Source: Chrysochromulina tobinii | Taxonomy: Eukaryota | Direction: 5' to 3' | DNA: 41,538 nt | Assembly (NCBI GenBank): GCA_001275005.1 | Contig: JWZX01003220.1 | Location: 1-41,538, forward strand | Part shown: one piece after another, positions 1,080 to 36,857 of the stretch | Numbering within the stretch: the stretch's first letter is position 1 | Layout: every line of letters starts with the position of its first letter | Notes under the pieces: model-generated | Told to the model about the DNA's origin: nothing | The model's database searches: none | What the model saw: only the letters and a program-made list of their open reading frames with translations | Translations under genes and position numbers: made by a program

Positions 1080-2607
1080 TTATGACTGGATGCTGCTGCT
1101 CTCGACCCACGTGTACTTGGTGAGCGGCGGCGGTGTGGTAAACATCAGGTAGTCGGCCAGCGGGAGCACGGCGCTACCAACGCGTGCCTGGCTCACCGCA
1201 GCGGCACGCTCGCGATCTTCAGGCTTTGAACCAATGACAGGCGCGCCCCCGTCGCCCGGCACGGGCGCATACCGCAGCTGCAAGATGTACTCGCCAAAGT
1301 TGAGACGCCCGCCGGGACCACCAGCAATCGACGGGTCTCTCACCTGCATGCAATCAGTGAGGCATGCATGCAATCAGAGAGGCGAGCAGCAATCGACGGG
1401 TCTCTCACCTGCATGCAGCGCAACTCGTGACCATCCGCGTCAAACGGCGGTCATCAGCGGTCATCAGAGGTCATCAGCGGTCATCGGCGGTCGAACGGCG
1501 GTCGAACGGCGGTCATCAGCGGTCATCAGCGGTCATCAGCGGTCATCACACCAGCGTGCGAGTCGAGGGATGGCTCACCGTATCCGATGGGAGCGGGTTG
1601 AGCATGACCGACGCGACGGAGGCGAGGCCGCCGGGTAGCTGGCGCGCGCATCGCGCGGGTACGCCGCAGCCGAATTTCACATGGTCGGAGCCCACGAGGC
1701 CGACGAGAAGCCCCTCCGGGTTGTTGCGGCACCAGGCGGCCGACGCAGAGCCCATGCTCTCATCCCATAAGACTCGTCCCGAGAAGAAGTTGCGAAAGCT
1801 CATGTCCTCGTCGAGCATCTGGCCGGTGATCGTCGTGCGCAGGATGCCCATCCGCTGGTGCATCTGGTAACTCGGCTTCACGATGTATGCCACGTACTCC
1901 TTGAATGCAGTCGTCGCTGCGAATGCCGAGAAGCCCTCAGGGTCGGTCACGTAGCTGCGCAGCGTCTCAGGCGGCAGCGCAGGCAGGCCGCCCACCTCAA
2001 CACGGCTCAGGTCCTCCGAGTCCACGTTGAGCGCGAGCAGCGGGATGCCGAGCTCGCGGCATGCACGAAAGACGGGAGCATAGGCGGCGAACGGCCAGAA
2101 CCAGCGCTTTCGCCACTCAGTGGCCTCCTCGAGCTCCACCTCGCCGATCCGGCCCGCCACGAAGCTGTCGAGTGCCGGCTGGAAGCGGCGCTGCACCGCC
2201 TCGAGCCCGACGGCCATGGGTAGGCTGCCGCGTTCCTTGTGCAACTCACGGATGACTGCGGACTGTAGCAGGTGGTCGGCAGCGCTGTTGTGGTGCTCTC
2301 CGAGGAATACGGCGCGACACTGCTGCAGCTGCTTGACGATGGTACCCGCGGTAAGAGGCTTGACTGTCGGCGAAAGAGTCTTTGTCGAGTCGGGCACGAC
2401 ACTGTAGATTTCGGCCGAACGTAGTGTGACGCCATCTTCAGTTAGAAGCAGTGTGGCTGCGCTGGTAGGCAGGACGCCAGAGAGGCCAGCGGCGGCGAAC
2501 GCGCCGGCAAGTGCTCTGCGCGAGACGTGGCTGCAATGCTGGTTGCCATGCTGCGGTGTATGCAATGCGGCGACCCCAATACTCAGAAGGAGCACGAGCA
2601 TCGGCAT
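1080..2607 (-). CDS. ChaN/PhuW (Tiki-superfamily haem-uptake-like) protein, probably in the thylakoid lumen; exons 2607-1579 and 1343-1080
   Basis: Motifs AVFLGEHH, MAVGLEAVQRRFQPALDSF, WDESM, VGSDHV and the C-terminal PLADYLMF. N-terminal signal peptide MPMLVLLLSIGVAAL, then SRRALAGAFAAA (Tat-like). A phase-0 GT..AG splice joins the two ORFs. Confidence 0.85.
1344..1578 (-). other. Spliceosomal intron made of two stacked units (1578-1409 and 1408-1344)
   Basis: GTGAGC donor at 1578, a TGATGACCGC tandem array, an internal CAG|GTGAGA at 1409/1408, and the final CAG acceptor at 1344. Removal restores the frame. Confidence 0.85.
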
Positions 2608-2806
2608 CCGCAAATTTCGCAGGCGATTCTGGAAGTTTCTTGTCGGTGTGTGAGGGGCCTGATCACATGTGATCATTGGCTGATTGTGTCTTTGACGGGC
2701 TCTAATTGGCCTCTGATTGCGTCTTCGACTATGCGATGCACGTGAGCACTGTTGCCCACGTGCACCGGAGTGAGCCTCCGAGTGCTGCTGCTCAAGTCTA
2801 GGAATT

Positions 2807-3901
2807 CTACGCAGAGCAAGCTCGGACGCGCGCTTCGAGAGCAGCGACCTCATCGGTCGTGTCTACCATCGGGTACACGGCCGCGAAGATGCTCGCAGAG
2901 CCGAGGACGACGCACACGTGCCAAATGGCCACATGAAACTCGAGGCTGCGGATGGCCCAAGGCAGCAGTCCACCTATGTAGAAGACGCCCGAGATCCAGA
3001 TGAGATCCATTTGCCACGTGTGCAGCGTCTCGCGCACCATGGCGATTGAGGCGTTGTACGTGAGTAAGGGACCGAAGACAAACGACACGACGTGCAGGGC
3101 GATGTTGTCGAGCACTCCGCCGGAGGCCTTCGCGAGGATCGTAGCCAGCATGAGGATCCAGAGCACCGCGGACGATCGCCACGCGCACGAAAAGACGAGG
3201 ACGGGCGTCGCAGAGCCCGCAATCAACACACAGATCCCAATGTGATCGAGCAGCGCCAAGCGATCGACATCCAACCAGAGCTTCAATCGGGCGAGCCTCT
3301 GGCCCACGTTGAAGGCGGCGGAGCAGATGAGCATCGTGAGCAGGGACATCCCATACACGAAAATCACTGCAGCGACCAAGATGGGAAAGCCTTCGCTCAG
3401 ATCGGTGTGCCGCCAGACAGCGAGCCACTGCTTGACGGCACCGACCACGGTGGCAACAAAGGCGACAGCGCCGAGGGCCAGCCCAACGCCATGGACGATG
3501 GCGTCGGTGAGAAGCTCTCTACGGCTGTACAGCCGCACTTCGGGATACCATGGGATCTGCTGATCGAACGGATAGCGCAGATGGCCAAGGAGGGACGGCA
3601 CCGATTCGGAGCCGCTGGCATCGGACCGATCCGGGAATTCCTCAAGGAGGATCTCGGTAGCGAGCCGATCCTCGGCACGCTGCTGGGAATTCTCGACGGC
3701 CCGGCGAGCCATCTCCGCCTCGGTCTCTGCAAGCCTGATGGCCTCCGCTAAACTCATTGGCGACTTGCCGCGTTTGATCGCCTCCATGTAGTCACCGCGC
3801 GCATCATCAAACAACTTCTTGAGGTCCGCGGAGCTGAGCACGTCCCGTTCCATCTTCTCCATTTTGTCCATGATCGACATAGCTGCTTCAGCGTACGACA
3901 T
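2807..3901 (-). CDS. PAQR / haemolysin-III family 7-TM protein
   Basis: ELLTDAIVHGVG, LDHIGICVLIAGSATP and FHVAIWHVCVVLG match the HlyIII/PAQR motifs. About 7 hydrophobic segments. First ATG at 3901. Confidence 0.88.
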   Translation of the reverse strand: MSYAEAAMSIMDKMEKMERDVLSSADLKKLFDDARGDYMEAIKRGKSPMSLAEAIRLAETEAEMARRAVENSQQRAEDRLATEILLEEFPDRSDASGSESVPSLLGHLRYPFDQQIPWYPEVRLYSRRELLTDAIVHGVGLALGAVAFVATVVGAVKQWLAVWRHTDLSEGFPILVAAVIFVYGMSLLTMLICSAAFNVGQRLARLKLWLDVDRLALLDHIGICVLIAGSATPVLVFSCAWRSSAVLWILMLATILAKASGGVLDNIALHVVSFVFGPLLTYNASIAMVRETLHTWQMDLIWISGVFYIGGLLPWAIRSLEFHVAIWHVCVVLGSASIFAAVYPMVDTTDEVAALEARVRACSA

Positions 3902-4108
3902 CGTCCACACCTGGGCGCTGCCGAGGAGCTCTCGCTCCCTCCGACGGCTCGGGCATCCGCCCAAGTTTCAGCATCTGGAGGGAAAATTGGCAAAAAAAAG
4001 ATCTGCGGTCGCCGTCAGTCTATGACGGAAAAGTTCGTGTGTATTCACACATGTGTTCTTTATGAACACTGTTGGCGGAATGCGCGGAAAGGGTCTTCGC
4101 GGAAAGTC

Positions 4109-4888
4109 ATGTCCGCCCGAGGCGATGCAATTGCCCTCGCTGCATGCGCCGCAGCTGGCGCCGTGGCATTTGCCATCGGCGTTTTTATGTCGGAAAGGCT
4201 CTCGTCTTCTAAGTCCGTGGACGTCCGCTTGGACCCACACAGCAGGTCTTGGAAGCCCATGCCCACAACAGCCGAAGCGCCAACGGCTTGCTGTGCACCG
4301 AATGAGGAGGAGGTGCCGGAGATGCCGAAACGCATGCGTGAGGCGCTCGTTCGCAAGGGGGAGACCACCGAGTCTGCGTTCAAGCCACGGTGTGCAACCG
4401 AATCGCCCAAGGCCTGTTGTGACAAGGCTTGTGCACCTGCTTGTACTGATCACCACGAGGTGCCGGAGATGCCAAAACGCATGCGTGATGCTCATGCCCG
4501 CCAATTGGCGACAAATTGGGAAGGATTCCTCGAGCGCGTACCTGGGAAGGAGTCCACGAAGGCGGAGCCCTCGAAAGCGGAGCATGTCAAGCCGCAGCTG
4601 GGCTCCGTGATGGCGCTGGCGAAGGACACGGGCAGGCCGCGGGACGAGTGCAGGGCAGCGCTCATCGCCAGCCAGAACGATTACGACCGGGCCAAGGCGA
4701 GCCTGATGCCAGACGCCATCCTGAGCCAGGCGCCCAGCGGCGTGGCCATTGAGGGTGTGTACGAGCCGGCCGAGAAATTCGGTGGTGGTCGCCCTGGATG
4801 GATCTTCAAGTCCGGTCCGCACGGCCTAGGTTATTACAAGCACAAGGACCCTCTCCCAGCTTGCATGCCGGCGGCAAAGGGCGGCTGA
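4109..4888 (+). CDS. Uncharacterised protein: N-terminal TM helix, duplicated Cys-flanked EVPEMPKRMR repeat, EF-Ts-N/UBA-like domain and C-terminal GLGYY motif
   Basis: AIALAACAAAGAVAFAIGVF is hydrophobic. VMALAKDTGRPRDECRAALIASQNDYDRAKASL resembles the EF-Ts N-terminal UBA-like three-helix unit. C-terminal KFGGGRPGWIFKSGPHGLGYY. The alternative start at 4022 is less likely. Confidence 0.7.
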   Translation: MSARGDAIALAACAAAGAVAFAIGVFMSERLSSSKSVDVRLDPHSRSWKPMPTTAEAPTACCAPNEEEVPEMPKRMREALVRKGETTESAFKPRCATESPKACCDKACAPACTDHHEVPEMPKRMRDAHARQLATNWEGFLERVPGKESTKAEPSKAEHVKPQLGSVMALAKDTGRPRDECRAALIASQNDYDRAKASLMPDAILSQAPSGVAIEGVYEPAEKFGGGRPGWIFKSGPHGLGYYKHKDPLPACMPAAKGG

Positions 4889-5541
4889 TGCTAAGCGCAG
4901 CCTTGCCGACATCGTCGAGGCTGCTCGTTCGTGGATCTTCGATGGCGATTGCGAAGAGCCGAGGGACGCGGCTCACAAGCTCAACGAGTTCGTTGGGCTT
5001 GGGTACTGCGACCTCGGACAAATGACGGCGTCACCCCCAAAGGCCGTTGCGTTGCATGCGCAGGCCAAGGGTGCCGCCCGATGAGATCTTCTCTCGCACC
5101 ACGGTAGGCTCACAAAACGCATCCCCACGCACAATCCAGTGCCCCCAAACCCGGCCGTCGAGCCCCTCGTGGTCTCGTTTCTCAATTCCTTCTTCTGGTA
5201 TGAATCAGATATTTGTACGGGTTGAGCCGCGGCCGCGACGGACTCGTCGTCTTCGTGCTGCGCGTACCACTCGGCACGTCACTCGTCAGGACCACACGCA
5301 GTGGGGATTTATTGCTCAGTCGCCGGAGCATTTCCATTTGGATTTGCAGTCTTGCGCATCCTTCATATCCTTCTATCCGACCGGACTGTGAGGACCCAGA
5401 TCACGATTCGTCTGTTCCAGGCGTTTACGTGGTCGGGGGTGCGTATTCGGGTAAGTTGGTTGAGCTGACCTTTCTTCTAACTTGTTCGCAGTCTTCATAC
5501 GCCCGGAGCCCCGCGGACGCGAAGCCGACGAGCGGCCTAAT

Positions 5542-6962
5542 ATGCCTCCGGAGGTCACGATCTCGTGGGCCGAGCCGCGCAAGAGCTCGCCGTACACGCT
5601 CGCGCGGTCGTCCATCAAGGATGATGACGGCGAGATGCCGCTCGAACCGGGCTCACTCTCGAACTCGGACAAGTCGGACAGGTCTTCAAGCGAGCCGCTA
5701 TCCATGCCGACCCTGCTGCAGCGGCTCATGTGGCGGCACTCGGTGCTCTTCAACACGGCGCAAGAGCTCACACTGCTGCTGCTTATCGGCATGGGGACGA
5801 CCGCGGTCGTCTACTCAGTCGACAAGTCCATCGATGTCATGCTCAAATGGCGCATGAACACGCGGCTCTCATGGCACGTCGCCGGCGGCTTCCTGCCAGA
5901 GTACCTCGTGTGGATAGGCTCGTCGATGCTGCTGTGCACTCTCTCGGCTGCCTGCGTCCATTTGATCGGGCCTTGCGCCGCGGGCTCGGGCATCCCGCTG
6001 ATGAAGTGCGTGCTCTCGGGCGCCCAGATGGATGATTACATCTCGTTTCGCACCCTCGTGGCGAAAGCGACCTCGCTCGCCTTCGCATATTCGGGCGGGC
6101 TCTCGGTCGGCAAGGAGGGCCCGTTTGTGCACATGGCCTCGTGCGTCGCGCACCAGATGTGCCAGCTGCCCATCTTCCGCCGCGTCGCCCAGAACGAGCA
6201 CCTGCATCGACAGGTGCTCGCCGCCGCCTGCGCCGCCGGTGTCTCCGCCGCCTTCGGCTCGCCTGTAGGTGGTGTGCTTTTCTCGATCGAGGTCACATCG
6301 ACGTACTACTCGATCTCGCACCTGTGGAAGGCATTCTTCACCGCCGTTTGCGGCACTCTCTTCGTTCGCCTCGTCCGTGCCTACGGATCGCTAGCGAACT
6401 TCCGTATCACCGACTTCTCGGTGCAGGTGCGCTGCCCGTCCCTGGGCTTGGCTTCTGTTACGTGCTGCTCGGCCTCGGATGCATGCTGATCGTACGCATG
6501 CTGACGGTGCGCTTGCTTCTCTGCCTTCGCAGGACGCCGACACCGGCCTTTCGGCAAGTCTCCTCAGTGGGGAAATCTACGCCTTCCTGCTGCTCGGAGT
6601 ACTGTGCGGGGTGCTCGGCGCCGCATTCGTGCATGCAACGGCCTCGACCATACTGCTGGTGCGCAAGCTGCGCGTCTCGCTCAGCAAGCCGCAAGGTCGC
6701 GCCGGTGCCAGCTGCAGCGGCGGCGGCAGCGGCGGCGGCGGCAGCGGCAGCGGCAGCGGCGGCAGCGGCGGCAGCGGCAGCGGCAGCGGCGGCGGCGTTG
6801 CCAGTGCATCTGGAGGTTCCAACGGCAAGGGAACCGCGCACGGCCCCGTGCCGCTCACGCCTGCGAGTGCATCGCCAGCTGGCGCCCACGGCAGCGCGTC
6901 AACGGCCGCGCCGCCTGTGCTCTCGTTCTCGGAGCGATGGTCCTACGAAACCGTCAACGGCA

Positions 6963-7014
<52 letters not shown>

Positions 7015-9220
7015 CGGATGCGGCGGATGCGCAGCCGAGTGCGGCGGGTGCAGCTGCTCCGATGGCCGTATGAGATGCGTCTTCGCGGCGCTGATCTCGC
7101 GCTATGGGTTCGTCAACGTCGTCGCCTTCGTCACCGCGATGTTCTCCTTCCCGTTCGACTTCTTCTCCTCCGAGCCCGAGGAAGTCACCTCTGAGCTCTT
7201 TGGCGCGGCGCCCTTCGACTTCAAGGCACGCTGGTCCATCACTCCTTGATTGCGTCTTGATTGCGTCTGATGGCCCCAGTTGATGCCCTCTGATTGCCTC
7301 CCTCATCAGGCACGCTGGTCCAATCCATCACTCCTGGTCAACCTCTGCATCTACACCGTGTGCAAGTTCTTCTTCACCTCCGTGGCCGCCGGCTGCCCCT
7401 TGGGCGTCGGCATCTTCACACCCACGTTCCTCATAGGCGCCGCCACTGGGCGGGCCTTCGGTGAAGCTCTCAATGCGCTGCTGGTCCTCACCTCGTCGTC
7501 CTTCCAGGTGACCGCTGAAGACCGCTGATGACCACTGATGACCGCTGATGACCGCTGATGACCGCTGATGACCGCTGATGACCACTGATGACCGCTGATG
7601 ACCGCCGATGACCGCCGATGACCACTGATGACCGCTGATGACCGCTGATGACCGCTGATGACCACTGATGGCCACTGACTGATGGCCACTCTCATTGCGC
7701 GGCTTCCAGGTGACCGCGGGGGCGTACGCGGTGGTTGGCTCCGCGGCCATGGCGGCCGGCGTCACCCGCACCATCTCATGCGCCGTGATGGTCTTTGAGC
7801 TCACTGGACAACTCAACCACCTGCTGCCGGTGCTCGTGGCGGTGCTGGCCGCGTACGGGACTGGCAACGCGTTCAACAAGTCGTACTACGACACCATGCT
7901 CGAGCTCAACAATTATCCGTTCTTCAGGCCGCCGGACCTGACAGTCCCCTCCTCGCAGGCGGCTCAGGATGTGATGGACACGTCCCTCGTCGGGCTGGCG
8001 CGCGTGTGCACCTACCTCGATGTCCACCTCCTACTCACCACGTCCAGTGACTTCGAGTTTGCAGTCGTGGATGCTCTGGACAGCCAACGGCTGCTGGGCA
8101 CGGTGACCCGCGCTACGCTCGCGCGGCTGCTCGATGCGCACATGCTGAGCGGCGAGCGCGCGCGCCGCCATCGGATGCCAGGCCTGGGGACCGTCCTAGG
8201 GAGTCGATTTCGTCAACAGTTTCGTCGGATGCCCGGCCTGGGGAGTCGGTGCGGCAGTATGGGCAGCCTGCTGCGCGGCAGCCTCGCCAACGGTCTGAGT
8301 CGCTTTCTCTCCCCGTCTGCGGGAGTTTCGTCAGTTGGTGTCTCCATCGGAGTCGCCTACGAAGCGACGGAGCGCGCACGCCTCTCGTCGGGCGCCTCCG
8401 ATGGCGCTTCGGACTGTGCGTCACACGACGCCGTCTCCTTGGAGCCCTCAGCAGACCATCAGACGACCATGCACCTGCCCGACCGCGCGCTGCGTGAGGC
8501 GCTCGCTGGAGCCGTTTCCGAGGATACGCTGTCGGACACTCAAAGCCCGGCACCGACGGCGGCTGCGGCTGGCGATCCCGTCGCCGGACGCACGAGCGGA
8601 GGCAGTCCGAGCGGCGGCGGCACCGGTAACGGTAGCAGAGGCACCGGCGAGGCCGAGGCCGACGACGACCGTGAGTGGCGCTGCGCGCGTGGCAGCGGCG
8701 TGCTATGCGGACCTCACGCGGGAAAGTCGCTCGGAGAGCGGCAGCGGCAGGCAGGGGTACGTCGGGCGCACCCATCGGCCTCGCCCAGCATGCACATGCT
8801 CACCACAGCGCTCTCGCCCCCACAGATACGGGCGCACCCATCGGCTCCTCAGCCTCGCCCAGCATGCATGTGCTCACTACGGCGCTCCTTCCCCTCCCCC
8901 CACAGGTACCCATGGGCTCGGTGTATTCAGAGCTCGAGCTCGCCTTGCTTCGTCAACCCGTGGACTTCGGAATGGAAGCCGCGGACAGCGACACATGCGC
9001 CGGCGCCGCCGACAGGCTCGGCGGCGGCGCTGAGGGCGCGCCCGGGGTCCCCACGCTTCCTAGCGGTGGTCTCGTGCAGTGCGCGCCGAACATCTGCACG
9101 GCGGGCGCTCCGCTCAGCCAGGTGCACATGCAGTTCTCGGTGCTCGGGCTCGAGCGCACCTACGTCACGTACGCCGGGCGCCTGCTCGGCGTCATACGCC
9201 GCTCGCAGCTCGGGCGGTGA
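5542..9220 (+). CDS. CLC: CLC-family chloride channel with two CBS domains; exons 5542-6426, 6533-7225, 7310-7507, 7710-8756 and 8906-9220 (the linker splice is less certain)
   Basis: Motifs GSGIP, GKEGP, GGVLFSIEVTS, GIFTP, YAVVGSAAMAAGVT, VFELTGQ and SYYD. CBS2 reads VHMQFSVLGLERTYVTYAGRLLGVI. All four splices are phase 0 and in frame. Confidence 0.92.
6427..6532 (+). other. GT-AG intron 1 of CLC (106 bp)
   Basis: CAG|GTGCGC donor, CTGAC branch-like site, pyrimidine tract and CGCAG acceptor. Removal joins the two ORFs in frame. Confidence 0.88.
7226..7309 (+). other. GC-AG intron 2 of CLC (84 bp), TGATTGCGTC/CCCTCATCAG family
   Basis: AAG|GCACGC donor, in-frame TGA at 7247-7249, ends CCCTCATCAG. 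The 5' end duplicates the downstream exon start. Confidence 0.85.
7508..7709 (+). other. GT-AG intron 3 of CLC (202 bp), TGATGACCRC tandem-repeat family
   Basis: Roughly 15 copies of a 10-nt unit, with CTTCCAG|GTGACCGC at both junctions. Removal restores the frame. Confidence 0.9.
8757..8905 (+). other. Intron 4 of CLC; two related units in tandem (8757-8825 and about 8832-8905)
   Basis: GTACGT donor in phase 0. Both units contain GGGCGCACCCATCGGC..CCTCGCCCAGCATGCA..GCTCAC and end CCCCCACAG. The 8905 acceptor opens the CBS2 frame. Confidence 0.65.
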
Positions 9221-9450
9221 TCCTGAGAGATGACCTGTAAACTCTATACTCTTAGTATTTAATACGAGTTAGGTATATTGAAGGGAGGTAGTTAACGAGG
9301 TACGCATGAAGTCAATTAGGGAGGCACGAATTAGTGGAACAAGCGCGAAGGCACTCTCACACGACAGAGATCGACGAAGGTGCGGATCGAGCCAGAGAGC
9401 CTGAAGAACAGAGCGATCCACCCAGAACAAGCACTGCGTTGTGAGCCTAC

Positions 9451-12400
9451 CTACCCCGTGGCCGCCATCTCAAACACGTACGGCGTCGGCTTCTTGAAGA
9501 AACGACGCACCTCCTCGGCCGATAGCATTTGATTGGGCGAGCCGCGCAAGAGCAGCGTCGCGCCGCGTGTCGTCTTCTCGACGCCAAACTGCATGATGCC
9601 CACGATGAGCAGCACGAGCATATCGACGCGCCGCCAGATCGGGTCGGCTTGCCCCTTTCTCTGCTTCCGGTGCGCCGCGTCCAGCCAAGCTTGGTAGGCA
9701 GCGGGCCCCACCTCAAGAAGAGCGCCGAAGAACTCGCCGGGGAACTCGAAGCCGTGCCGGCGCATCTCTTTATCGGTGGGCAGCGCCTTGATGAACGCAA
9801 TGCGCACAATCGCCTCGAGGAAACCTTCGAATGAGAGCTGCATCAACGTCCCCAGCTGGCTCTTGCGCGACGTCTCGTCAATCGTGGCCATCCGGCTATG
9901 CGAGAAGATGACGAAGACGGTTCGAACCGTAAGCTCCTTGGTCATGCCTATGTCGCGGATAAACGAGGACCACTCTTGTACGCCGAGCAAGTCGGTCACT
10001 CCAAACTGGTCTGCTGCCCCTGAGCCATACGCGGCGTACACATTGAACACGTTGAGCAATGAGGCCTTGTGGTGGTCGAGGACGGCGCACACCTCGCGAC
10101 GGTAGCAGTTCGAACGCCGGAAGGCGTCCGCATCGTGCAAGATACTCCCCGCATGGGGGAGCCGCCCCAGGTTGAGCATATCTTCAAACATCTCATTCAC
10201 ACAGCGCGGCATGTCCTCGATCTCCTGGTTGTCGATGGCGGCGCGCACGAGGACCTCGATCAACTCGGAGCGCGTCAACCGTGTCTTCGAGTTCCACGCC
10301 TTCTGTGACTTCGACAGCTGCGACTCATTCACCGAGATCCAAAGCAAATCCCACCCGTCCTCTCCGCGCGGCCTGGCGTGGCGTGCGGTGGGCACATAAA
10401 AGCGCTCGTTGTGATCCTCTTGGTCGTGAAAACGACGCACGAGAAACTCCTTCGAAAAAGCTTCTTCGTGCCCACTCTCTTGCATGATGAGGCCCGCCTC
10501 CTCGAGCATCAGCGAATAGCCGGCGTGCGTCAAGCCCTGCACAAATTGCGTCACCTCCGCCTCGATGCACGAGTAGAAGTCGTGGATACGCAGCAGCATC
10601 GGGTACCAGTGCTCGAGTGCGTCGCGGATCTTCGTACACGTGGTTGCGCTCATCGACTTGAGGCCAAAGGAGCGCCGCTCCATGTTGTTGACCAGCGCCT
10701 GGCCGCCCGATGTATTCATCCAATCGCTCGCGAACGCCGCCTTGAGGGCACTTGGCGTGTTCACGTAGTCCTTGGAATCGCACGCGAACTTGCCTCTCTT
10801 GCGCGGAGCCCAGCACGTAGCGTCCAGCCAGCTCAGATCGGCGTTGGGATCACTGCCGCCGACGCTCGAGGCGGCCCAGAAGTTGGGAAGCTCGCCGCCG
10901 CTGTCGATGTTCCTCATCATCTCCTCGACTGCGGGATCCAACATCTCACCCAAATCTTCATCTTCGCCTCGACCGCCGCCTCCGCCGCTGCCGCCGCCGC
11001 CTCCGACCCCGCCGCCTCCAGATGCCTTGTCCATACCGCCGGCTCTGCCACCATCTTCTTCCAGCCCTCTACCTCCGCCGCCTCCGCCACCACACCCGCC
11101 GCTTCCGAGTCCACTGCCGCTCTTGCCGCCGGTTCCTTCGCCGCCCTTGCCACCGCCTAGCCCACCTCCCTCGCCTCCGCCACCCTTGCCACCGCCACCA
11201 TCACCTCCACACCCCACGCCGCCGCCTCCACCGCCTCCCCCACTTGTACCACCGCCGCCTTCGCCACCGCCACCGATCCTGCGGCCGCCCTTGTCACCAC
11301 CGCCCCCGGCACCGCCTCCTCCGTCGCCCCCACCACCATCACCTCCTCCTCCTCCGCGAGTGCCGCCGCCACCGCCACGCTTGCCAGCACTCGCGAAGGC
11401 ACCGGAGAGCAAATTGAAGTCAACATCGTCTTCATCCTCGTCCTCCTCGTCATTGCTGGCTACAGCCGCACTGAACTCTGAGACGCTGAATCGTAATTGC
11501 GCAGTCGCGGGGGGGGCGCCATCGGCGCTCCCGCTCCTTTCTCCGTCGCCACCCTGACGCCGGATTCGGTTGGCGTCGCGGCTGGATGCCACCCCCGAGA
11601 GCTTCCCACGCATGGCCTCATGCTCCGCCTCACTGGCGGCCGCGGCGGCCGAGGCGGCAGCAGCGTTGCGATCGAGGGCGCGGGTCTCCCGCGCATATGC
11701 GCGCCAGCTCTGGTCGTCATCGCGCGACTCATTCGAGTGGAAAGCACCAAGCGCCACATGCGAGTCGGGCAGGAGGCAGTGTAATCGACTCGCTTCATTG
11801 CGCCCATCATGGTGCCTCGGACTGTGCCGGCGCACTGTGGGCAGCGCATGCATGCCTTCGGAGAACTCGAGCCCAGTCCCACGCGTCAGCTCGCCCTCGT
11901 CGTTGCGCAGCTTGAAGCTTGCCGCCGGCCGGCCTCCCGCAAACGATGCCCGCGCCGAGCTCGCCATCACATCGGGGCGGATGCCCCACACCCCGTCCGG
12001 ATGTGCGCGCGCGGAGGCCTTGAGCGTGCCGTTCATGAAGTAGCGCGAGCGCGAGAGCTCCTGCAGTTGCACCTGAAAGTTGAGGACTGAGACGTCCGAC
12101 TCTGCATCCTGCTGTACGCTCTTGAGAGCCAGCTGGCACTTGGCACGCAGCTGATGGTGTGAGCGGTCGAAGAGACGCGATGAGTCGAAGACGGGCTGTG
12201 GATGCTCATGACCGCGCCACGTCGCGTCTGCCTTGCTCGTCAGGGGCGTCTGCGCCCACATGGGAGGGCGCGCGGGTCAATCTCGGTGGTAATCTCGGTG
12301 GTAATCTCGGTGGCAATCTCGGTGGCAATCTCGGTGGCAACCCATGGTAATCCATGCCAATCAGTGCGGCACTTACAGGCGGTCGTTTGAATTGGACTGT

Positions 12401-13246
12401 GCCAATCACGAGCTTCTTGACCTTCTGCCACTTGTGGGCCAAGGGCGAGGCATGGCTTGACGATGTGGTAGTTGCACGGTCTTCGTGTGACATCTTTCGT
12501 GCAGACAAACTCTTTTGGCGTATCTTGCTTTGGCGCTGCAGGTCCGCGGAGGGTATGTCGAGCTCGTGTGCATCTGCAAACCTGACTGGACCACCAATCG
12601 CAACCTCACCCAACCGCGGACGCGCCAACACCTTGGTCACGTGCTTGCTCTTCCGAGCAAGGATTTCCTTGAGCTCGTCCAACTCGGAGCCAGGACCCCG
12701 CACGCGGTGCAAGGCGTTGGCTTGAGTCCCCGTCAAGAAGGTGTCAATAGGTTCGGTCGCGGCTTGCTTCGCACAGCCCAGTCGAAAACCAATCCTCCGC
12801 CACTTGCAACGTGCAGCCTCGAGGGCAGCCTCTCGTGCCGCCTCGCTTTGACGCTTCACGCTAGGCAGGAAGGGCTTGAGCATTTCTGGGGATCCGTGTG
12901 TGGTCCGTGGGCTACACACGGATCCGTCGTCCAGGGATCCGCGTGTGCCTCCGAAGAAACGACCATCAAGGGGGTCCTCCCAATCAAATGAGTCTTGCTT
13001 CTTGATTTGCACCTTCCGTGGGCGTGCCGTCAGGGCTATGCGCTCCCAATCACGGTCCGGCTCGGAAGCAACGCCTGTACCCGATAGCGACGTCTTTGAG
13101 GAGCGGCGAGCTGCCGGGTTCCGTGGGGAAGGCGGATAGCGAAGGCTCGTAGAAGGTGACGATGGCGGCCAGAAGGGATCCTCACGCAGGGGTAGAGATC
13201 GTGGCACCACGCGGGACTGCACGGTCGGCTGGCCCACGGACCACAT
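9451..13246 (-). CDS. Large uncharacterised protein with a Gly-rich linker and a C-terminal EF-hand-like helical region; exons 13246-12377 and 12249-9451
   Basis: Two long ORFs joined in phase 0 by a GTAAGT..CAG intron. Repeated helical motifs LTRSELIEVLVRAA, LGVQEWSSFIRDIG and LSFEGFLEAIVRIA. Function not recognised. Confidence 0.75.
12250..12376 (-). other. GT-AG intron (127 bp) containing a 12-nt GATTRCCACCGA tandem repeat
   Basis: Consensus GTAAGT donor at 12376, CTGATT near the 5' end, five repeat copies and a GCAG acceptor at 12250. Removal gives an in-frame join. Confidence 0.88.
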
Positions 13247-13439
13247 ACGATTTTGCGTGTGGGCTGGGCTACAAGTCGTGTCGCCGGCTCGACTCGCACT
13301 CACGGGTCGCGGTTTTGAACGTTATTTTTGGTGACGACTTGTCATGCGGCGTCGTTCGAGTAACGTCTTTTTAACTTTGAAAAGGCAATGCATGCTCGTC
13401 GGAAAGGACACCCGGTGGGGGGCAATTGCTGCGTGTGCG

Positions 13440-15281
13440 TCACAACTCCTCTTTCAATCTTGCTGTCGGTGTCACCACCGCAGCGTGCTGCGGCACATCC
13501 ATGGGCAAATCATACCCCGCTGCCTCGCCTGCTCCGTGCTCGTCTCCATCGTCCTCATTCGCAGGCCGTTCAGCCTGGGGCCGTTCAGGCGCCTGTGGCT
13601 TCGGCTGTGCGTCCTCCGCCTGCACCTGAGCCTGCACCGTCGCAAAAGGCGGGGTCACTGAATGCCCGCCCTCGCCGCCAAGCGTCTCCTGCACGAGTGA
13701 GCCGAGCTGCTCCTCTGTAGCCTCGAGCTGACGCTGCAGCGCCGACTTCCTCTCGTCATCCGATGGCAGCCTGCCGCCGCCCGCACCGCCCGCGCCGTCC
13801 TCGCCACCGCCCTCGCCACCGCCCTCGCCACCGCCCTCGCCGCCCTCGCCACCGCCCCCGCCCTCGTCGTCGGAGCTGCCGGCGCGCCTAGCTGCCTCGG
13901 TCGCCTCGAGCGCGGCGAGCTGCTGGCGTAAGACCTCCACTTTTTGCTGCAACTGCCGCATCTGCTCGGTGGTACGTTGCTCCTGCTCCTTGTTTCGCAG
14001 CTCTCGCTCCTCAAACTCCGCAAGGCGAGTCTGCATGGAGTGCCACAACTCCTGCTTCTGATCAAAGTCCTCCCGCAGCTTCTTCGTCTCACTCAGCTGC
14101 AAGGCAAACTCGGCGCGCACCTCAGCGGCCTTCGTCTCAGCCACCACCTTGGCGGCGCCCACCGCGCGCTGCGCGCGCGCCTCAGCCTCCCGAAGGGCTT
14201 CCTCGAGCCTCGCTTCCCTCAGCTGCGCCTCATTCCATCGCGCCTCGGACTCGCGACGAAGCCGATCGATCTCTTCATTGTACTCGGTGCGCATGCGCTC
14301 GCGCTCCTCGCGCAGCTGGCGCTGGAAGTCATCCATGCGCATCCCGAAGCTCTCTGCGAGCGCCACCGCCATCATTGTCGCGTCTGGTGGATGGTAGTGG
14401 ACCGCCATGTGCGGAAGCGCCGCGACCGCCGACCGCAGCTCGTCGTACTTGTCGCGGCTCGTGAGCACCACGGTGCCTGTCGCATTGGGCGCGTGCGCAA
14501 AGAACTCGCGCATAATGTCCTCCCGAAAGAAGCGTCGCTGCTCATCGTCTTCGGCACGGTCGTCCTTGGTGCCGACGAGGATCACGTTGGCCCACTTCTC
14601 CTCACCTACGAAGCCCTTGTCCACGATCGTGGCGACGACCTGCGCTCCGAGCTTGACGCGCCCGTCGGAGATCGGATTGGTCACGAGCACGCCGTCGATC
14701 GGTGGCAGCAGCCGCGCCTCGAGCATTGAGATCAGCTTCGTCGGTGTCACGTCCTTATCACCGACGCCCGGCGTGTCCAGCAGCTCGACCGGGTGGCCGT
14801 TGATCGGCAGCCCTACGTATGACATGATCTGCTTGGTGACGCCGCGAGCAGAGCGACCGGCCTCGGCCTCGCCGCTGCGCGTCGGGTCGCGCAGCGCATT
14901 GATCATCGTGCTCTTGCCGTCACCCACCTCACCAACGATGAGCAGCCGTTTGAGAGGCAACGCTGGATCCTCGGGCTTCAGCGCCCCGAAATAATGCTCG
15001 AAGAATAGCTTGCCGTGTTTGTGCACGTGGTCTTTGAGGTGCGCCTTTAGCTGGCTGTGGTTCGACTCGGGGATCAGCCACGCAACCACGGGCGCCAAGA
15101 AAAGTATGGTGAGCGCCACGCGTGCCGTGCGGCTCATCCGTGCCCAAAGCCGTTGCACAGCACGGTACACGACGGCAAGCGCCGCTTGGATCACGAAGCG
15201 GCCAGTGATGATGACGACCAGGCTGATCAGCCATATGATGAGCTGTTGCGGGTGGGACGGCACGAGACCCACGAGCACCAT
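13440..15281 (-). CDS. Membrane-anchored TRAFAC GTPase (AIG1/GIMAP/Toc34-like) with a C-terminal coiled coil
   Basis: G1 GEVGDGKST, G2 GVT, G3 DTPG, G4 TKDD. Two N-terminal hydrophobic helices and a long E/R/Q-rich coiled coil. Confidence 0.85.
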   Translation of the reverse strand: MVLVGLVPSHPQQLIIWLISLVVIITGRFVIQAALAVVYRAVQRLWARMSRTARVALTILFLAPVVAWLIPESNHSQLKAHLKDHVHKHGKLFFEHYFGALKPEDPALPLKRLLIVGEVGDGKSTMINALRDPTRSGEAEAGRSARGVTKQIMSYVGLPINGHPVELLDTPGVGDKDVTPTKLISMLEARLLPPIDGVLVTNPISDGRVKLGAQVVATIVDKGFVGEEKWANVILVGTKDDRAEDDEQRRFFREDIMREFFAHAPNATGTVVLTSRDKYDELRSAVAALPHMAVHYHPPDATMMAVALAESFGMRMDDFQRQLREERERMRTEYNEEIDRLRRESEARWNEAQLREARLEEALREAEARAQRAVGAAKVVAETKAAEVRAEFALQLSETKKLREDFDQKQELWHSMQTRLAEFEERELRNKEQEQRTTEQMRQLQQKVEVLRQQLAALEATEAARRAGSSDDEGGGGGEGGEGGGEGGGEGGGEDGAGGAGGGRLPSDDERKSALQRQLEATEEQLGSLVQETLGGEGGHSVTPPFATVQAQVQAEDAQPKPQAPERPQAERPANEDDGDEHGAGEAAGYDLPMDVPQHAAVVTPTARLKEEL

Positions 15282-15403
15282 TGGGGTGGATTGATGGCGA
15301 TTTCACACCTCGAAACCCCATGACAAAACTGCACACATCCACGGAAAGGGCCACCGCAGGATGTTAGCAGATTTTTTGTGCGCGTGTGAATCTATTTTCG
15401 AAG

Positions 15404-17131
15404 ATGGAGACGGGCTTCATGTGGCCTGACCTCACACGGCATCATCACCCACAAGGCTTCGAAAACATGAAGGTCAAGGACGTTCTGGCCTGGTCCTCCG
15501 AGAAGGCCACCCACGTAGTGACCTGGTCCTCCGAGAAGGCCACCCACGTAGTGACCTGGTCCTCCCAACACGTCTCCGATGCTCTTTGCGTGAGCATCAA
15601 CGTTTCGTGCAGGAAGAAACCAGAGCTCTTTGACCAGCCGGGTGGGGTCGTCTTCTTCTGCATACTGGCGTTTTCCAATGTGTTTGCACTATTAGTTCTC
15701 ATCTCCGTAGTCGGCGGCTTTGTCACGAGGCTTTTGGATCCGGCGGCAGCATTCGCACGCACACTTCGTGACCCGCGCGCACACGCTTTCGCCAATATGC
15801 AGCGCGAGGTACTCGGCAAGACGTCCCTAACCGTGCTGGTGCCATGCTACCTGCCCAACGAGCAGCTGATCGTGAAGAGCACGATCGCACACCTGATCCA
15901 CAACCTCGAGTACAGCTTCCCGTTCCGCCTCATCGTTTGCTACAACACGCCCTACCCGATCGCCTTCGAGGACGAGCTGCGCGAGCTCGACGGGTACGTG
16001 TACGCCAACGGCCGGTCCGTGCAGATTCTCAAGGTGGAAGGCTCCTCTTCCAAGGCTGAGAATCTCAACTGCGCGCTGCTCTCCGTGGACACCGAGTATG
16101 TCGCCCTGTACGACGCCGACCACCACCCTGACGCGCACTCGCTGCTCATTGCAAGTGCGCACATGGCGGCGCGCGGCGTCGCGTGCGTGCAAGGATCGAC
16201 GTACCTTCGATCGTTGCCCAACTTCATGGCCGTCTACATCAACGCCGAGTTCTTCGTCACCCACTTTGTCTTCTTTCCTGCCATGCAGTTCCTCACGTCC
16301 TTCGGAATCTTTGGCGGCTCGAATGCGCTCTGGAGGACCGCCATCCTCAAAGCGTACCAGTTTCGTCATGACGTGCAGACTGAGGATATCGACGTGTCGA
16401 TCCGGTCCTCGCTCGATGGGCGCGTCAAGATCTCTTTTTGCCCCGAGTGTCGCTCGGGTGAGCTGCCGCCACGTACCTTCAACGACCTCTACCGACAACG
16501 GCTGCGCTGGGCTCTAGGGTGGGATCAGGTGACGCTGCAACACATGCGCAGCATTGGGAGCAGCACCGAGCTCAACTGCGCCGAAAAGGCTGGCATGTAT
16601 TACCTGCTGCCGCTCCGATGGGCTCTTCTCTTGTCCGGTGTGGCCAATGCACTCGTCGCGCCGATAGTCGCCTCCGCTTGGGCGAATGGTGTCGGCGGCG
16701 AGCTTGGTGGTCCGATTGAGACTTGCTACGCCTTCTCGTTCACCACGTACGCCACGCTTTTCGCTGTCGCGGCCATCAACGCCATCCTCCACGAGCCACG
16801 GCAGCGCTGGCCGGCAATTATCGCCTTCCAATTGACCGGCGCCGTATATATTGGCTGGAACCTCGCGCTGTACTTCATCTCGCTCATCAAGATTTGCACG
16901 GGCGCGGATAGCGAGTGGGTCGTCACCACGCGCGCGCCCGACGTTCCTTCCAGGGCGCGCACCGCTGGGCTCGCTTATTTGCACCCGAGTGATACATGCG
17001 CATCAAGCCCTCGGCCTGAGCTGAGCACGCCCATGCAGGCAGCGTTCGCGATGTCGTGTGAGAAGGAGCTCGTAGAAAAGTACAACGCGGCGCGTGGCGA
17101 AGTGTCGGACCCGCCCATCCCCATGCTTTAG
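15404..17131 (+). CDS. Processive GT2 beta-glycan synthase (cellulose-synthase-like), intronless
   Basis: LVPCYLPNE, SKAENLN, YDAD (DxD), GGSNALWR, TED and QRLRW (QxxRW). One N-terminal and several C-terminal TM helices. A 33-bp tandem duplication encodes WSSEKATHVVT. Confidence 0.9.
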   Translation: METGFMWPDLTRHHHPQGFENMKVKDVLAWSSEKATHVVTWSSEKATHVVTWSSQHVSDALCVSINVSCRKKPELFDQPGGVVFFCILAFSNVFALLVLISVVGGFVTRLLDPAAAFARTLRDPRAHAFANMQREVLGKTSLTVLVPCYLPNEQLIVKSTIAHLIHNLEYSFPFRLIVCYNTPYPIAFEDELRELDGYVYANGRSVQILKVEGSSSKAENLNCALLSVDTEYVALYDADHHPDAHSLLIASAHMAARGVACVQGSTYLRSLPNFMAVYINAEFFVTHFVFFPAMQFLTSFGIFGGSNALWRTAILKAYQFRHDVQTEDIDVSIRSSLDGRVKISFCPECRSGELPPRTFNDLYRQRLRWALGWDQVTLQHMRSIGSSTELNCAEKAGMYYLLPLRWALLLSGVANALVAPIVASAWANGVGGELGGPIETCYAFSFTTYATLFAVAAINAILHEPRQRWPAIIAFQLTGAVYIGWNLALYFISLIKICTGADSEWVVTTRAPDVPSRARTAGLAYLHPSDTCASSPRPELSTPMQAAFAMSCEKELVEKYNAARGEVSDPPIPML

Positions 17132-17379
17132 CATCGGCCTCTCGGCCTCGATCGGCACCATCGGGTCGACCGGCGTCAAGACTTTCTGAGAACGAACAAG
17201 AACGTTAGCGTTTTGGGTGATTTTCATTATCTCGTAAGAGTGACGTATTGACCGGACGGAAACGCCCCAACCGCGAACCCCGGTCACGGGTCAGTGGCAA
17301 GTAGTACACGGACTTAAATCGAACCAGAGACAGACTCTTCATCTACGAGAACTTAGTTTTCTCGCGTGCCCCAAAGAAC

Positions 17380-19947
17380 TTATTGGACGAATTTCTCGGC
17401 ATAGTAGAGCGCTGCTGTGGCCTCCGGTGCGCTCATGGCGAAGCGGGCGCGAACACGTGCGCTGGGATAGATGCCTTGAGGATACAGCAGCTTCAACCGT
17501 ACTTTGGGCACTCCGGGCGTTGGGGACCCCTTCGGCTGTCCGGGTGCGCCGCGCGCACCCCCCTTGGCTGCCTGCGGACTCGCGAGCGCATTCTCAGCCG
17601 CGGGCGGTTCGCAGAGCCCTACCAACTGCTGCCAGGGCGGCGGCGTTGGCTCCTGGGGCGACGGCGTTTGCGGGAACTGACACTGCTGCGATGGCGGCTG
17701 CCACTGTTGCTGCCATTGCTGCGGCTGCGGTTGCGGCTGCGGCTGCGGCTGCTGCTGCTGCCACTGCTGCTGCTGCTGCTGCTGCTGCACCCGCAGGCGC
17801 TCCTTTTGTAGTGCCTGCTTGGCTGCGGCCTTCAACTGCTGCTGCTGCTGCTGCTGCTGCTGGCGCTGCTGCTGGCGTTCGGCTGCTTGGCGAGAAAGCT
17901 CCGCGGCCTTCAACTGCTGCGGCTGCTGCTGGAGCTGGAGCTGCTGCTGCTGCCACTGCTGCTGCTGCTGCTGCTGGAGCTGCTGCTGCTGCTGGAGCTG
18001 CTGCTGCTGCTGGAGCTGCTGCTGCTGGAGCTGCTGCTGCTGGAGCTGCTGCTGCTGCCACTGCTGCTGCTGCTGCTGCTGCTGGAGCTGCTGCTGCTGC
18101 TGCCACTGCTGCTGCTGCTGCCACTGCTGCTGCTGCTGCCACTGCTGCTGCTGCGACTGCTGCTGCTGGTGCTGGTGCTCCGCCGCCCTCTGACGTAGCA
18201 GTGCCTCCTTCTCGAGCACAGCGCGCTGCTTCTGCTCGAGCAGCACCCGCTGGCGATACTCTTGTAGAGCCTGCTTGGCTGCGGCCTTCTCTCGACGCTC
18301 CACCTCCTTCTCGACGCCCTTGAAGAGCCGGCCGAGCACGGCGCGCACCTCGAGCTCGATGCGGCGCTCTTCCGCAAGCCGCAGCTTCTCGGCCGCCTGC
18401 CAGTGACGAAACTCGAGTTGCGCGCGTCTCGCCGCCTCGGCCGCGCTTCGCTGCGCCTCGAGAGCCCGCATGCGCTCCACCGCGAGCGCCCGCGCGAGCT
18501 CCTGCTCGTGTGCCAGCTCGACTCGGCGGACCAGCTGGTCGAGGGTGCGACTCACCTGATGAGGGATGCAATCAGACGCAATCAGACGCAATCAGACGCA
18601 ATCAGACGCAATCAGACGCAATCAGACGCAATCAAGGGTACGACTCACCTCAAGGGTGCGAAGCGCCTCCTCGGACAGCGGCGGCAGCTTGGGCTTCGGC
18701 GGCAGGTTGAGGTTGAAACCGGCCCCGGGAAACGGCGTGGGTACGTGCACGACGATCTGCAGCTTCATGCCCGGGTAGGCGTTCGGAGGCAAGGTGATCT
18801 CAAACCGTCGCGGGGAGGGTGTGCCCGGCTCGAGTACAGCGATCCGTTGGCCGGGCACCATACCCGGCGTCACGGTGACGATCAGCTGCTTCGTCTGCAT
18901 GCTTGGGAGTTGGATGGGCTCCACGAGACGCTTGATGAGGGATTCCACCACAGCACGCACTTCGCGATCCACGCGCTTGTCGCATCTATCGAGGCGCGTC
19001 CGCAGCGCTGAGCGTTGGAAAGGCGTTCGGCCGCCGTCTACGCCGGCGGCGCCGGCAGCACGGGCAGCACCGGTGATGCACGCACCATCCGACGCAGATG
19101 GATCTCCGGATCTCGACGGATCTCCCAGGCCGAGCCGTACGAGCGCCGCGTCGAGCGCCACCGCAGCTGGCGCTGCGCCGTGCGACGACTCGTCGGCGGG
19201 CCCGAGGCCGTCCGTGAGAGTCATGGCACAACGCTTACAAAGCGAGCGCGATTCCGCCAGTGTCGACAACGTTGGCCTTCGGAACTGGCGATCGGCGTCG
19301 AACGGTAGCGCGTCGCCGCAGAAACAGCAGATCACTTCCGCCTTGCGGCGGCTCCCACTGCGCCGGGGTTGCGACGACACCGCAGACGAGATCAGCCCCT
19401 CTGTGTGGCAAGTCAGCGCAGCTGCGGAGGCGCTGCTTCCTCCAGCCGTAGCTGTCCGAGGCAGGCGCGCGGGCTCCTCCGCGCGCTCGTCGCCGCCTTC
19501 CTGGGTGGTACGGCGTCGCTTTGGCGCAGGTTCCACCTCGTCCATCTCGGGTGGTCGCGCAACCAGCTCTGCCAACGTTTCCTTCGTGTGGTGGCGGGTG
19601 GTGCCAGGCGCACGATGGAACCAGGCCTCACCTTCGTCGCTGTCGTTGCCGCCATCATAACAGTCATGATTGTTGACGTCCTTGGCGGAGTGTTTGTAGC
19701 CGGGCTGACGGCTCTTCCACTCGTCGCGCGCTTGCTCCTGTTCGCGGTTTATCTGGCGCTTGAGAGCTTGCTGTGCATCCGGCCGGCGCCACTCCTCCTT
19801 AGCGAGCGCGAATGCCTGCGAGGATGTTAGTGACGAGTCGGCCTGGGAAAGTGCCGAGCGTCGCTCCTGCACGAAGCGATTGTATGCCGAGAGCGGGATC
19901 GAGTCGTTCGAGCTCGAGTTTGCGGCCGTTTTGTACGAAAGTGGCAT
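17380..19947 (-). CDS. Putative nuclear protein: HMG-box-like domain, Cys4 cluster, coiled coil and long poly-Q/W tract; exons 19947-18649 and 18555-17380
   Basis: PLSAYNRFVQERR..AFALAKEEWRR is HMG-box-like. NLS PKRRR, CCFC..CKRC and a paired VTPGMVPGQRI/LPPNAYPGMKL motif. A 93-bp intron joins the ORFs in phase 0. Confidence 0.75.
18556..18648 (-). other. GT-AG intron (93 bp), TGATTGCGTC/CCCTCATCAG family
   Basis: GAG|GTGAGT donor, six TGATTGCGTC units with an in-frame stop, ends ATCCCTCATCAG. The 5' end duplicates the downstream exon start. Confidence 0.9.
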
Positions 19948-36823: not shown

Positions 36824-36857
36824 AATCAGGGATATTCAGGTAGGCGCGCCACCTATT

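What the first reader, a model, noticed from the sequence alone, without database searches (positions are those of the whole stretch)
1344..18648. Introns whose 5' end copies the start of the downstream exon: introner-like intron gain with long junction duplications
Seen in four introns of three unrelated genes. (1) 1408-1344: 31-nt perfect duplication. (2) 7226-7309: AG|GCACGCTGGTCCA-----TCACTCCT versus exon AG|GCACGCTGGTCCAATCCATCACTCCT. (3) 7508-7709: CTTCCAG|GTGACCGC at both ends. (4) 18648-18556: AG|GTGAGTCGTACCCTTGA versus exon AG|GTGAGTCGCACCCTCGA. In each case the donor (GT, or GC at 7226) comes from duplicated host AG|GY sequence, so splicing restores the protein exactly. In several cases the duplicated segment blends into the repeat unit by microhomology (TGACCGC, CTTGA, GATTGC). 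Known: introner elements in Micromonas and Aureococcus create introns and can co-opt target-site duplications, which are short and fixed-length for DNA transposons. Inference: variable 15-31 nt duplications, no terminal inverted repeats and junction microhomology point to a non-transposase route, such as target-primed reverse transcription or templated break repair. I cannot confirm from the sequence alone whether this is already described for this lineage.
Basis: partly seen in the sequence, partly recalled or inferred. Interest (0 to 1): 0.85.

Follow-up and report, generated by a model that had tools for sequence, protein, structure and literature searches.

The report
Repeat introns flanked by long duplications
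In this freshwater haptophyte alga, many introns are a short 10-base-repeat filler lying between two copies (10-55 bases) of the gene's own coding sequence, and close relatives appear to lack several of them, so the alga likely makes new introns by copying the tail of its old ones into breaks in its genes.

Summary
The four duplications are in the sequence. They belong to a genome-wide pattern in a Chrysochromulina tobinii-like alga. At 60 of 119 acceptors carrying the shared tail CTGATTGCnTCCCTCATCAG, the exon start is copied upstream (10-55 nt, median 24.5; 0.4% in permuted controls). The filler is a sense-strand decamer array. The 7508-7709 intron is spliced in three RNA runs. Near-identical alleles run straight through 7226-7309 (5 of 15) and 18648-18556 (6 of 9) while reading into the next intron, which points to recent gain or loss. 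Corrections: 1408-1344 has no exon before it and is the last unit of one intron, 1578-1344. The AG usually comes from the filler (host AG in 14 of 38). Some duplications straddle or end at the AG. Microhomology is weak (p 0.035). Best reading: repair of a staggered break copies the 3' part of an existing repeat intron, likely from its excised RNA; a DNA template is nearly as likely. This is not a fixed-duplication introner. Ten paper searches found no description. The scan saw the same footprint before on another piece of this genome (e1-2577349).

The parts
1579..2607 (-). Exon 1 of a ChaN-like (PF04187) gene
1409..1578 (-). Older unit of the compound intron: GT donor, decayed copy of the exon start, TGATGACCGC array (1447-1548), AG at 1409
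   Evidence: Its first codons read VSHPST, the exon reads VRDPSI, homologues read VSDPST; 12 listed ORFs of relatives read into it
1344..1408 (-).
   Evidence: no exon between the units; gene model P0183 joins 1579 to 1343; no RNA joint shown
1080..1343 (-). Exon 2 of the ChaN-like gene
5542..9220 (+). CLC chloride channel gene (PF00654); introns 6427-6532, 7226-7309, 7508-7709, 8757-8905
   Evidence: Open frame after four splices
7226..7309 (+). Intron 2, GC-AG: copy of the exon start (7226-7246, with a later 5-nt deletion), decamer array, shared tail 7290-7309
   Evidence: 5 of 15 cluster members run through it and read into intron 3; 3 keep the intact longer copy
7508..7709 (+). Intron 3, GT-AG: 15-nt duplication straddling AG|GT (7501-7515 = 7703-7717), 17 copies of TGACCGCTGA
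   Evidence: spliced in RNA contigs of X14, X15, X17; present in 10 of 10 informative cluster members
12250..12376 (-). Related intron with a 12-nt array (12278-12340), no junction duplication seen
   Evidence: boundaries inferred from the reading frame only
18556..18648 (-). Intron 4, GT-AG: 17-nt copy of the exon start (2 mismatches), TGATTGCGTC array, shared tail 18575-18556
18396..18397 (-). Empty site (CAG|GC) where all six intron-4-less alleles carry another array intron, here called J, 159 nt downstream of intron 4
   Evidence: Their ORFs end RHWQ-VSATDDD, the window reads on RHWQAAE
17380..19947 (-). Gene of unknown function with a Q-rich tract, interrupted by intron 4
   Evidence: 824-aa frame after splicing; no Pfam family

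Best explanation
These introns are a sense-strand filler of degenerate CTGAT decamers, often ending in CCCTCATCAG, set between two direct copies (10-55 nt) of exon sequence, and they likely arise when a staggered break in a transcribed exon is repaired by copying the 3' part of an existing repeat intron, likely from its excised RNA. Shown: the anatomy, the enrichment, the sense and gene bias, splicing of one case, and alleles whose reading frames run through the site with one copy. Inferred steps: (1) two offset nicks; (2) one free end primes on the intron RNA's natural 3' end, so the filler stops exactly at AG; (3) copying ends after 20-150 nt and joins the other end; (4) fill-in duplicates the target; (5) only products whose left copy starts with a usable GY donor, whose duplication contains AG|GY, or that stay in frame survive. 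The long direct repeats then likely drive further change: unequal exchange and repeated events at the same junction build chains such as 1578-1344, and recombination between the copies would delete the intron cleanly.
For: Filler ends exactly at AG: 102 of 185 array blocks that end in AG end in CCCTCATCAG (the loci were fetched with this motif). It does so also in one in-frame 54-nt insertion whose copy starts with AT, not a donor (L037). Stacks of 21-23-nt units run from the CTGAT motif to the AG (the branch-site reading of CTGAT is recalled). Geometry fits priming at a nick: fixed 3' end, variable 5' end, variable duplication. No host AG is needed (14 of 38). Arrays are confined to the sense strand of genes: 196 sense, 6 antisense, 13 non-coding-like, 30 unclear, 42 at edges, of 287 blocks; random positions 167, 199, 85, 83 of 534. 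Neighbouring introns share odd tails more often than chance: mean similarity 0.036 within 1 kb on the same strand against 0.015. Alleles without the intron. Intron-4 alleles nest among intron-less ones. Intron J is lost on the haplotype that has intron 4, as cDNA-based models allow (PMC3443670 section 6).
Against: 16 of 41 isolated events with a splice register straddle or end at a host AG (about 4 of these are sub-matches of other events); the true ones have a pure-array filler with no AG end. No reverse transcriptase or long partner element was found (30 sites searched to 10 kb; no genome-wide search was possible). Selection alone explains sense orientation inside exons. Introns 2 and 3 are neighbours but have different arrays. 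Coupled loss is seen in 1 of 4 informative cases (introns just downstream of intron 2, L075 and L067-4859 are kept). Presence and absence were read from predicted proteins, not DNA, and haptophyte RNA often retains introns (PMC4028052). Gain versus clean loss is polarised only for intron 4 and, by sister lineage, for L069 and L022.
Confidence: 0.42

Rival explanations
1. Same staggered break and selection, but the filler is copied from DNA: repair synthesis switches to an array intron (often nearby) and returns at short G|GT(G) or CTCATCAG homology (polymerase-theta-like templated insertion or break-induced template switching; pathway names recalled).
For: Explains all three geometries and the chains with one process. 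31 of 38 simple events have G before the GY, matching CAG|GT of a donor template. 14 of 22 acceptor chains have a filler unlike the previous tail and restart at an old CTCATCAG-like acceptor. Weak microhomology. Local similarity. Daphnia introns formed at staggered breaks carry 4-12-bp end repeats (PMC4202315).
Against: Almost no arrays in intergenic DNA, which is 16% of random positions. 7 of 38 simple events share no base before the GY. L037 ends at AG with no donor and no homology.
Confidence: 0.33
2. A short non-autonomous mobile element, moved by an unseen non-LTR retrotransposon, Penelope-like element or Replitron that recognises the CCCTCATCAG end.
For: Conserved 3' end, 5' truncation and variable duplications are retroposition hallmarks (recalled). 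Replitron-1 makes variable duplications next to RG (PMC10288648 section 9), and a Replitron locus is reported in C. tobinii (same paper, passage). The tail can fold into a 5-bp hairpin.
Against: No fixed 5' end or internal sequence, no poly(A), no long copy in 30 sites. Straddling events lack the end altogether. Confined to the sense strand of genes.
Confidence: 0.13
3. No net gain: old introns are rebuilt in place (duplication across a junction, then deletion of the old part), and the polymorphism is clean loss between the direct repeats.
For: About 100 of 154 repeat pairs adjoin another array. 8 of 22 chains are exact unit copies. Alleles differ in unit number (L054/L117). Intron J was lost. 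One intron-less L075 allele has a changed residue at the join (P0293).
Against: Sister lineages at 89-97% identity run through the L069 and L022 sites. Intron-4 alleles are nested among intron-less ones. Distant CLC ORFs that break at other places run through the positions of introns 2 and 3 (P0137, P0140). Perfect 30-40-nt straddling repeats need one event under gain but several under renewal.
Confidence: 0.08
4. A classical DNA-transposon introner (MITE) whose ends have decayed.
For: Introners with a 4-bp duplication and no inverted ends are described from a Chrysochromulina MAG (10.1101/2022.06.06.494994). CTGAT..ATCAG is a 5-bp inverted pair.
Against: Duplication length is not fixed (10-55 nt; 27 of 60 perfect); fillers differ in length and unit; three geometries.
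Confidence: 0.03
5. Assembly artefact at low-complexity repeats.
For: Arrays break assemblies.
Against: An independent contig spans case 1. The same intron-reading ORFs occur on 14 and 21 contigs. Copies differ by substitutions. Intron 3 is spliced.
Confidence: 0.01

Closest known systems
Intron gain at staggered double-strand breaks in Daphnia pulex (PMC4202315, passages read)
   Same: Insert flanked by a direct repeat of the adjacent exon end; segregating alleles; repeated events at one site.
   Different: Daphnia repeats are 4-12 bp (33 cases) and most inserts have no known source. Here repeats are 10-55 nt and the insert is always one repeat family with a shared acceptor tail.
Introners / introner-like elements (Gozashti et al., 10.1101/2022.06.06.494994; Roy et al., 10.1101/2020.10.14.339549; passages read)
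   Same: A family of related introns, one splice site recruited from a target duplication, exact restoration of the mRNA, phase-0 bias (15 of 19 shown).
   Different: Their duplications are fixed per class (3-8 nt; 4 bp in a Chrysochromulina MAG) and similarity spans the whole intron. That survey removed low-complexity families and partial similarity by design, so this type would have been filtered out.
Intron gain by tandem genomic duplication across AGGT (review PMC3443670, passages and section 6 read)
   Same: The straddling class uses a duplicated AG|GY for both splice sites.
   Different: Here a foreign repeat filler sits between short copies, and in the commonest class the host has no AG.
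Intron transposition through RNA: reverse splicing, RT template switching, intron circles (PMC3443670 section 6; PMC11146597 passages)
   Same: Filler is the 3' part of existing introns; sense only; one case of nearby gain and loss.
   Different: Reverse splicing gives whole introns and, by inference, no long duplication. Here copies are 5'-truncated and the donor comes from the target.
Replitron-1 of Chlamydomonas (PMC10288648, section 9 part 1 read)
   Same: Variable target duplication, dinucleotide context with G, one fuzzy end.
   Different: Replitrons have defined ends with terminal direct repeats and are 0.9-3.6 kb; not reported there to form introns.
Direct repeats near splice sites across taxa (PMC11782384, abstract only)
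   Same: Repeats of 4-30 bp near intron borders.
   Different: Mean 11.4 bp in a mixed set of 213 introns; no family filler, no anchoring rule, no alleles in the abstract.

Membership tests
DNA-transposon introner | Fixed short target duplication per family | tested here: not met
   10-55 nt in 60 events; no 10-nt periodicity either
DNA-transposon introner | Terminal inverted repeats or defined ends on both sides | tested here: not met
   5' end varies; only a 5-bp CTGAT/ATCAG pair in the tail
Introner (broad sense) | Sequence similarity over the whole intron, to both boundaries | tested here: not met
   5' part is locus-specific exon copy; arrays differ in unit and length
Introner (broad sense) | Many related introns at new positions, removed exactly | tested here: met
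   119 sites; intron 3 spliced in RNA; read-through alleles at six sites with DNA-type support
Intron gain by break repair (Daphnia type) | Insert flanked by a direct repeat of exon sequence; empty allele with one copy | tested here: met
   empty alleles seen at protein level only
Intron gain by break repair (Daphnia type) | Formation at a break, dependent on repair enzymes | not testable with these tools
   Needs experiment
Tandem genomic duplication | Intron made only of duplicated exon sequence containing AG|GT | tested here: not met
   A repeat filler is always present; host AG in 14 of 38
Non-LTR retroposon / SINE (TPRT) | Fixed 3' end, 5' truncation, variable duplication | tested here: met
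   Class A events; features recalled, not from a call
Non-LTR retroposon / SINE (TPRT) | Poly(A) or tail shared with an autonomous RT element; defined full-length copy | tested here: inconclusive
   No poly(A); no long copy at 30 sites; whole genome not available
Non-LTR retroposon / SINE (TPRT) | Microhomology at the 5' junction | tested here: inconclusive
   1.0 against 0.68 nt, p 0.035, n 33
Replitron (HUH) | Short terminal direct repeats and a Rep-coding partner | tested here: inconclusive
   No terminal direct repeat seen in fillers; partner not searched

The most novel reading that the evidence does not exclude
A self-feeding intron factory with no transposon: the excised tails of the alga's own repeat introns serve as RNA patches for staggered breaks in transcribed exons, bring branch sites and acceptor, take their donor from a 10-55-nt target duplication, and seed more introns in the same genes, while the long repeats also delete them, so that introns turn over within lake populations.
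Probability: 0.35. Interest if true: 0.9.

Novelty: new variant of a known kind. Interest (0 to 1): 0.75.

Why it matters
Where new spliceosomal introns get their sequence is a long-standing question. Break repair has been proposed, but the inserts usually have no traceable source, and introner surveys drop low-complexity families. Here source (a repeat-intron family), footprint (long duplication) and apparently empty alleles all occur in one culturable alga and in lake populations. Gain and loss can therefore be polarised, dated and provoked by experiment. It also warns gene finders: the copied exon start hides the true donor, and chains create false exons.

Tried and rejected
No whole genome was held, so counts come from 132 motif-fetched loci and are biased to the CCCTCATCAG tail; one search checks arrays without it. 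The motif found nothing in viral contigs or prokaryote genomes. Three viral-contig hits of a looser pattern were not examined. L095 was dropped after as an unrelated chance match, and duplicate or allelic loci were dropped. Locus-to-locus BLAST gave few orthologous pairs and no empty allele. RNA contigs showed no joint for cases 1 and 2; absence there is no evidence. A 15-nt micro-exon (LRCMQ) between the two units of case 1 keeps the frame but is not favoured: the gene model P0183 lacks it. A 10-nt periodicity of duplication length was rejected (p 0.15). The first microhomology control (0.36) was too lenient and was replaced. The first orientation test was confounded by intron-dense genes and was redone. 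Nine of 20 ORFs looked up were not in the collection. L039 was uninformative. L027-19140 (7 of 13 continuous) and L015 (1 of 15) could be RNA. Read et al. 2013 was not held: that E. huxleyi introns carry 10-11-bp repeats is recalled only. Ten paper searches found no description of this pattern. Subscription papers and the family tables in the supplements of the introner survey were not seen and may bear on novelty.
Full report
Setting. The window is gene-dense, GC-rich eukaryotic DNA. The ChaN-like protein falls in one 90% cluster with a Chrysochromulina tobinii protein whose residues 321-430 match my spliced model. Runs that hold the stretch are mixed cultures and fresh water. I therefore treat the organism as C. 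tobinii or a very close relative. No whole genome was held.

The observation. All four duplications are present: 31 nt perfect at 1408-1344; AG + 13 nt, a 5-nt gap and 8 nt at 7226-7309; 15 nt at 7508-7709; AG + 17 nt with two mismatches at 18648-18556. Splicing 6427-6532, 7226-7309, 7508-7709 and 8757-8905 gives one open CLC frame that aligns with homologues across both junctions. RNA contigs of three of four runs skip 202 nt, GT..AG, at intron 3, and two skip 6427-6532. Of 253 YAG|GY sites in the window, 7 have an anchored upstream copy scoring 11 or more: introns 1, 2 and 4 and four plain repeats.

Case 1 is a chain. 1408 directly follows the AG of another intron unit, 1578-1409. That unit's first codons read VSHPST, the exon reads VRDPSI and homologues read VSDPST, so the older donor is also an exon copy. 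The gene model joins 1579 to 1343. Whether the two units are cut in one step or two is unknown.

Genome-wide test. Introns 2 and 4 share a 20-nt tail. Of 241 matches, 133 were last in their chain with enough flank and 119 were unique. The exon start had an upstream copy scoring 10 or more at 60 of 119 and 20 or more at 33 of 119, against 0.38% and 0.17% of 2,380 permuted pairs; 103 of 119 exons start GT or GC. The 60 copies are 10-55 nt long (median 24.5), 27 are perfect, 38 follow exon sequence and 22 follow an earlier acceptor. Before the 38 simple copies stands AG in 14, G in 31. Arrays without the scan motif show it too: 55 of 193 have a flanking repeat scoring 12 or more, against 1.7% of 783 control pairs.

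Three geometries. A search for any direct repeat around an array gave 154 pairs, 54 of them not adjoining another array. Of these, 41 fit a GY..AG register on the array strand (11 on the other strand): 25 start at the GY, 13 straddle AG|GY (about four are sub-matches of other events), 3 end at the AG. The straddling ones include a perfect 40-nt repeat around a pure array. Of 22 acceptor chains, 8 are exact copies of the previous unit and 14 have a different filler. Stacks of 21-23-nt units run from CTGAT to the AG. One 54-nt in-frame insertion ends at the AG although its copy starts with AT (L037).

Where arrays lie. Of 287 array blocks, 196 are sense within coding flanks, 6 antisense, 13 non-coding-like, 30 unclear and 42 at edges; random positions gave 167, 199, 85 and 83 of 534. 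The classifier called 18 of 20 known intergenic points non-coding. Most of the 19 exceptions still end in CAG|G or are reverse-strand matches of the tail. Same-strand arrays within 1 kb are more alike than arrays of different loci (mean 0.036 against 0.015), driven by a few intron-dense genes.

Empty alleles. I looked up intron-truncated ORFs and read their 90% clusters (at most 15 members listed each; 11 of 20 ORFs found, 7 of 7). Members that run through the site: intron 2, 5 of 15, all reading into intron 3, one on a 10.5-kb contig; intron 4, 6 of 9, all reading into another array intron, J, that the window lacks; L075, 7 of 15, six ending in the next intron, contigs to 14.5 kb; L022, 7 of 15 (one a gene model; six at 96-97% identity, contig to 17 kb); L069-10088, 6 of 14 (89-94% identity, one on 8.9 kb); L067-4859, 2 of 15. 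Unclear: L015, 1 of 15; L027-19140, 7 of 13. None at intron 3 (10 informative), the older unit of case 1 (12, apart from the gene model), L009 (15), L069-13959 (13) or L027-3467 (15). Caveat: these are predicted proteins, and E. huxleyi RNA often retains introns (PMC4028052, passages). Long contigs, the link with divergence, and the consistent retention of the neighbouring intron argue for DNA. Three alleles keep intron 2's copy intact at about 27 nt, so the window's 5-nt gap is later decay. In a tree of nine alleles the three with intron 4 sit with two without it, and the sister clade of four lacks it (support 100/97). Intron 4 thus looks gained and J lost on the window's haplotype. Distant CLC ORFs that break elsewhere run through the positions of introns 2 and 3 (P0137, P0140).

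Mechanism. A fixed-length transposase footprint is excluded. A staggered break filled with a copy of an existing array intron, followed by selection for clean splicing, accounts for the variable duplication, the three geometries and the GY starts. I favour excised intron RNA as template (0.42) for three reasons: the filler stops exactly at AG even without homology or a donor, the smallest units span the CTGAT motif to the AG, and arrays avoid intergenic DNA. A DNA template (0.33) explains the straddling class and re-use of old acceptors at least as well. Against my reading: no RT partner (30 sites), marginal microhomology (p 0.035), different arrays in neighbouring introns 2 and 3, and coupled loss in only one of four informative cases. 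All mechanistic steps are inferred.

Known systems. Introners have fixed 3-8-nt duplications and whole-intron similarity, and the main survey filtered out low-complexity families (10.1101/2022.06.06.494994 and 10.1101/2020.10.14.339549, passages). Daphnia break-repair introns have 4-12-bp repeats and mostly unknown inserts (PMC4202315, passages). Tandem duplication and RNA routes are reviewed in PMC3443670 (passages and section 6). Also seen: PMC11146597 (passages), PMC10288648 (passages and section 9 part 1), PMC11282704 (part 1 of 5), PMC11782384 (abstract), PMC4580454 (passages: one intron per gene on average; the word intron occurs once in the main text). Ten searches found no description of this pattern; supplements were not read. 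I saw it after my tests, and it is not independent support.

Verdict. Real, genome-wide and apparently still turning over. It works like break-repair intron gain fed by a repeat-intron family and is not a member of the fixed-duplication introners. New variant of a known kind; interest 0.75.

Noticed in passing
window 18397/18396 (-): Six alleles lacking intron 4 all carry a different array intron (J) 159 nt downstream, which the window lacks; both sites offer AG|G and J starts GTGAG like the intron-4 site (inferred from its translation). Possibly a coupled gain and loss.
   Followed up: partly
window 1409-1445 (-): The end of the older intron unit translates to FDADGHELR, similar to homologue residues that the present exon lacks; a former exon piece may have become intron.
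   Followed up: partly
window 12376-12250 (-): Intron with a 12-nt array (GATTGCCACCGA) of the same family and no junction duplication.
   Followed up: partly
window 2640-2730 (+): Degenerate CTGATTG units between two minus-strand genes, antisense to both; a rare non-intronic occurrence.
   Followed up: no
window 8757-8905 and about 5100-5200: Other repeated families: DNA depth rises to about 1000 at 8756-9032 and 265 at 5155-5431 against about 37. The 8757 intron has an internal duplication and a TGCTCACCACAGCGC-type motif also seen in loci L012, L065, L066.
   Followed up: no
L027, L065, L067: Single genes with an array intron every 200-300 nt, in a genome averaging one intron per gene; gain may cluster in some genes.
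   Followed up: partly
L020 696 (+), L050 3577 (-): Duplications that start with GA after the acceptor; possible GA donors.
   Followed up: no
window 41147-41538 and 36850-37350: A 54-nt tandem array at the contig end and a region of dispersed 88-nt and 23-nt repeats.
   Followed up: no
window 15489-15565 and 608-667: Short perfect tandem duplications (33 nt and 26 nt) without filler, consistent with a general tendency to make 25-35-nt duplications.
   Followed up: no
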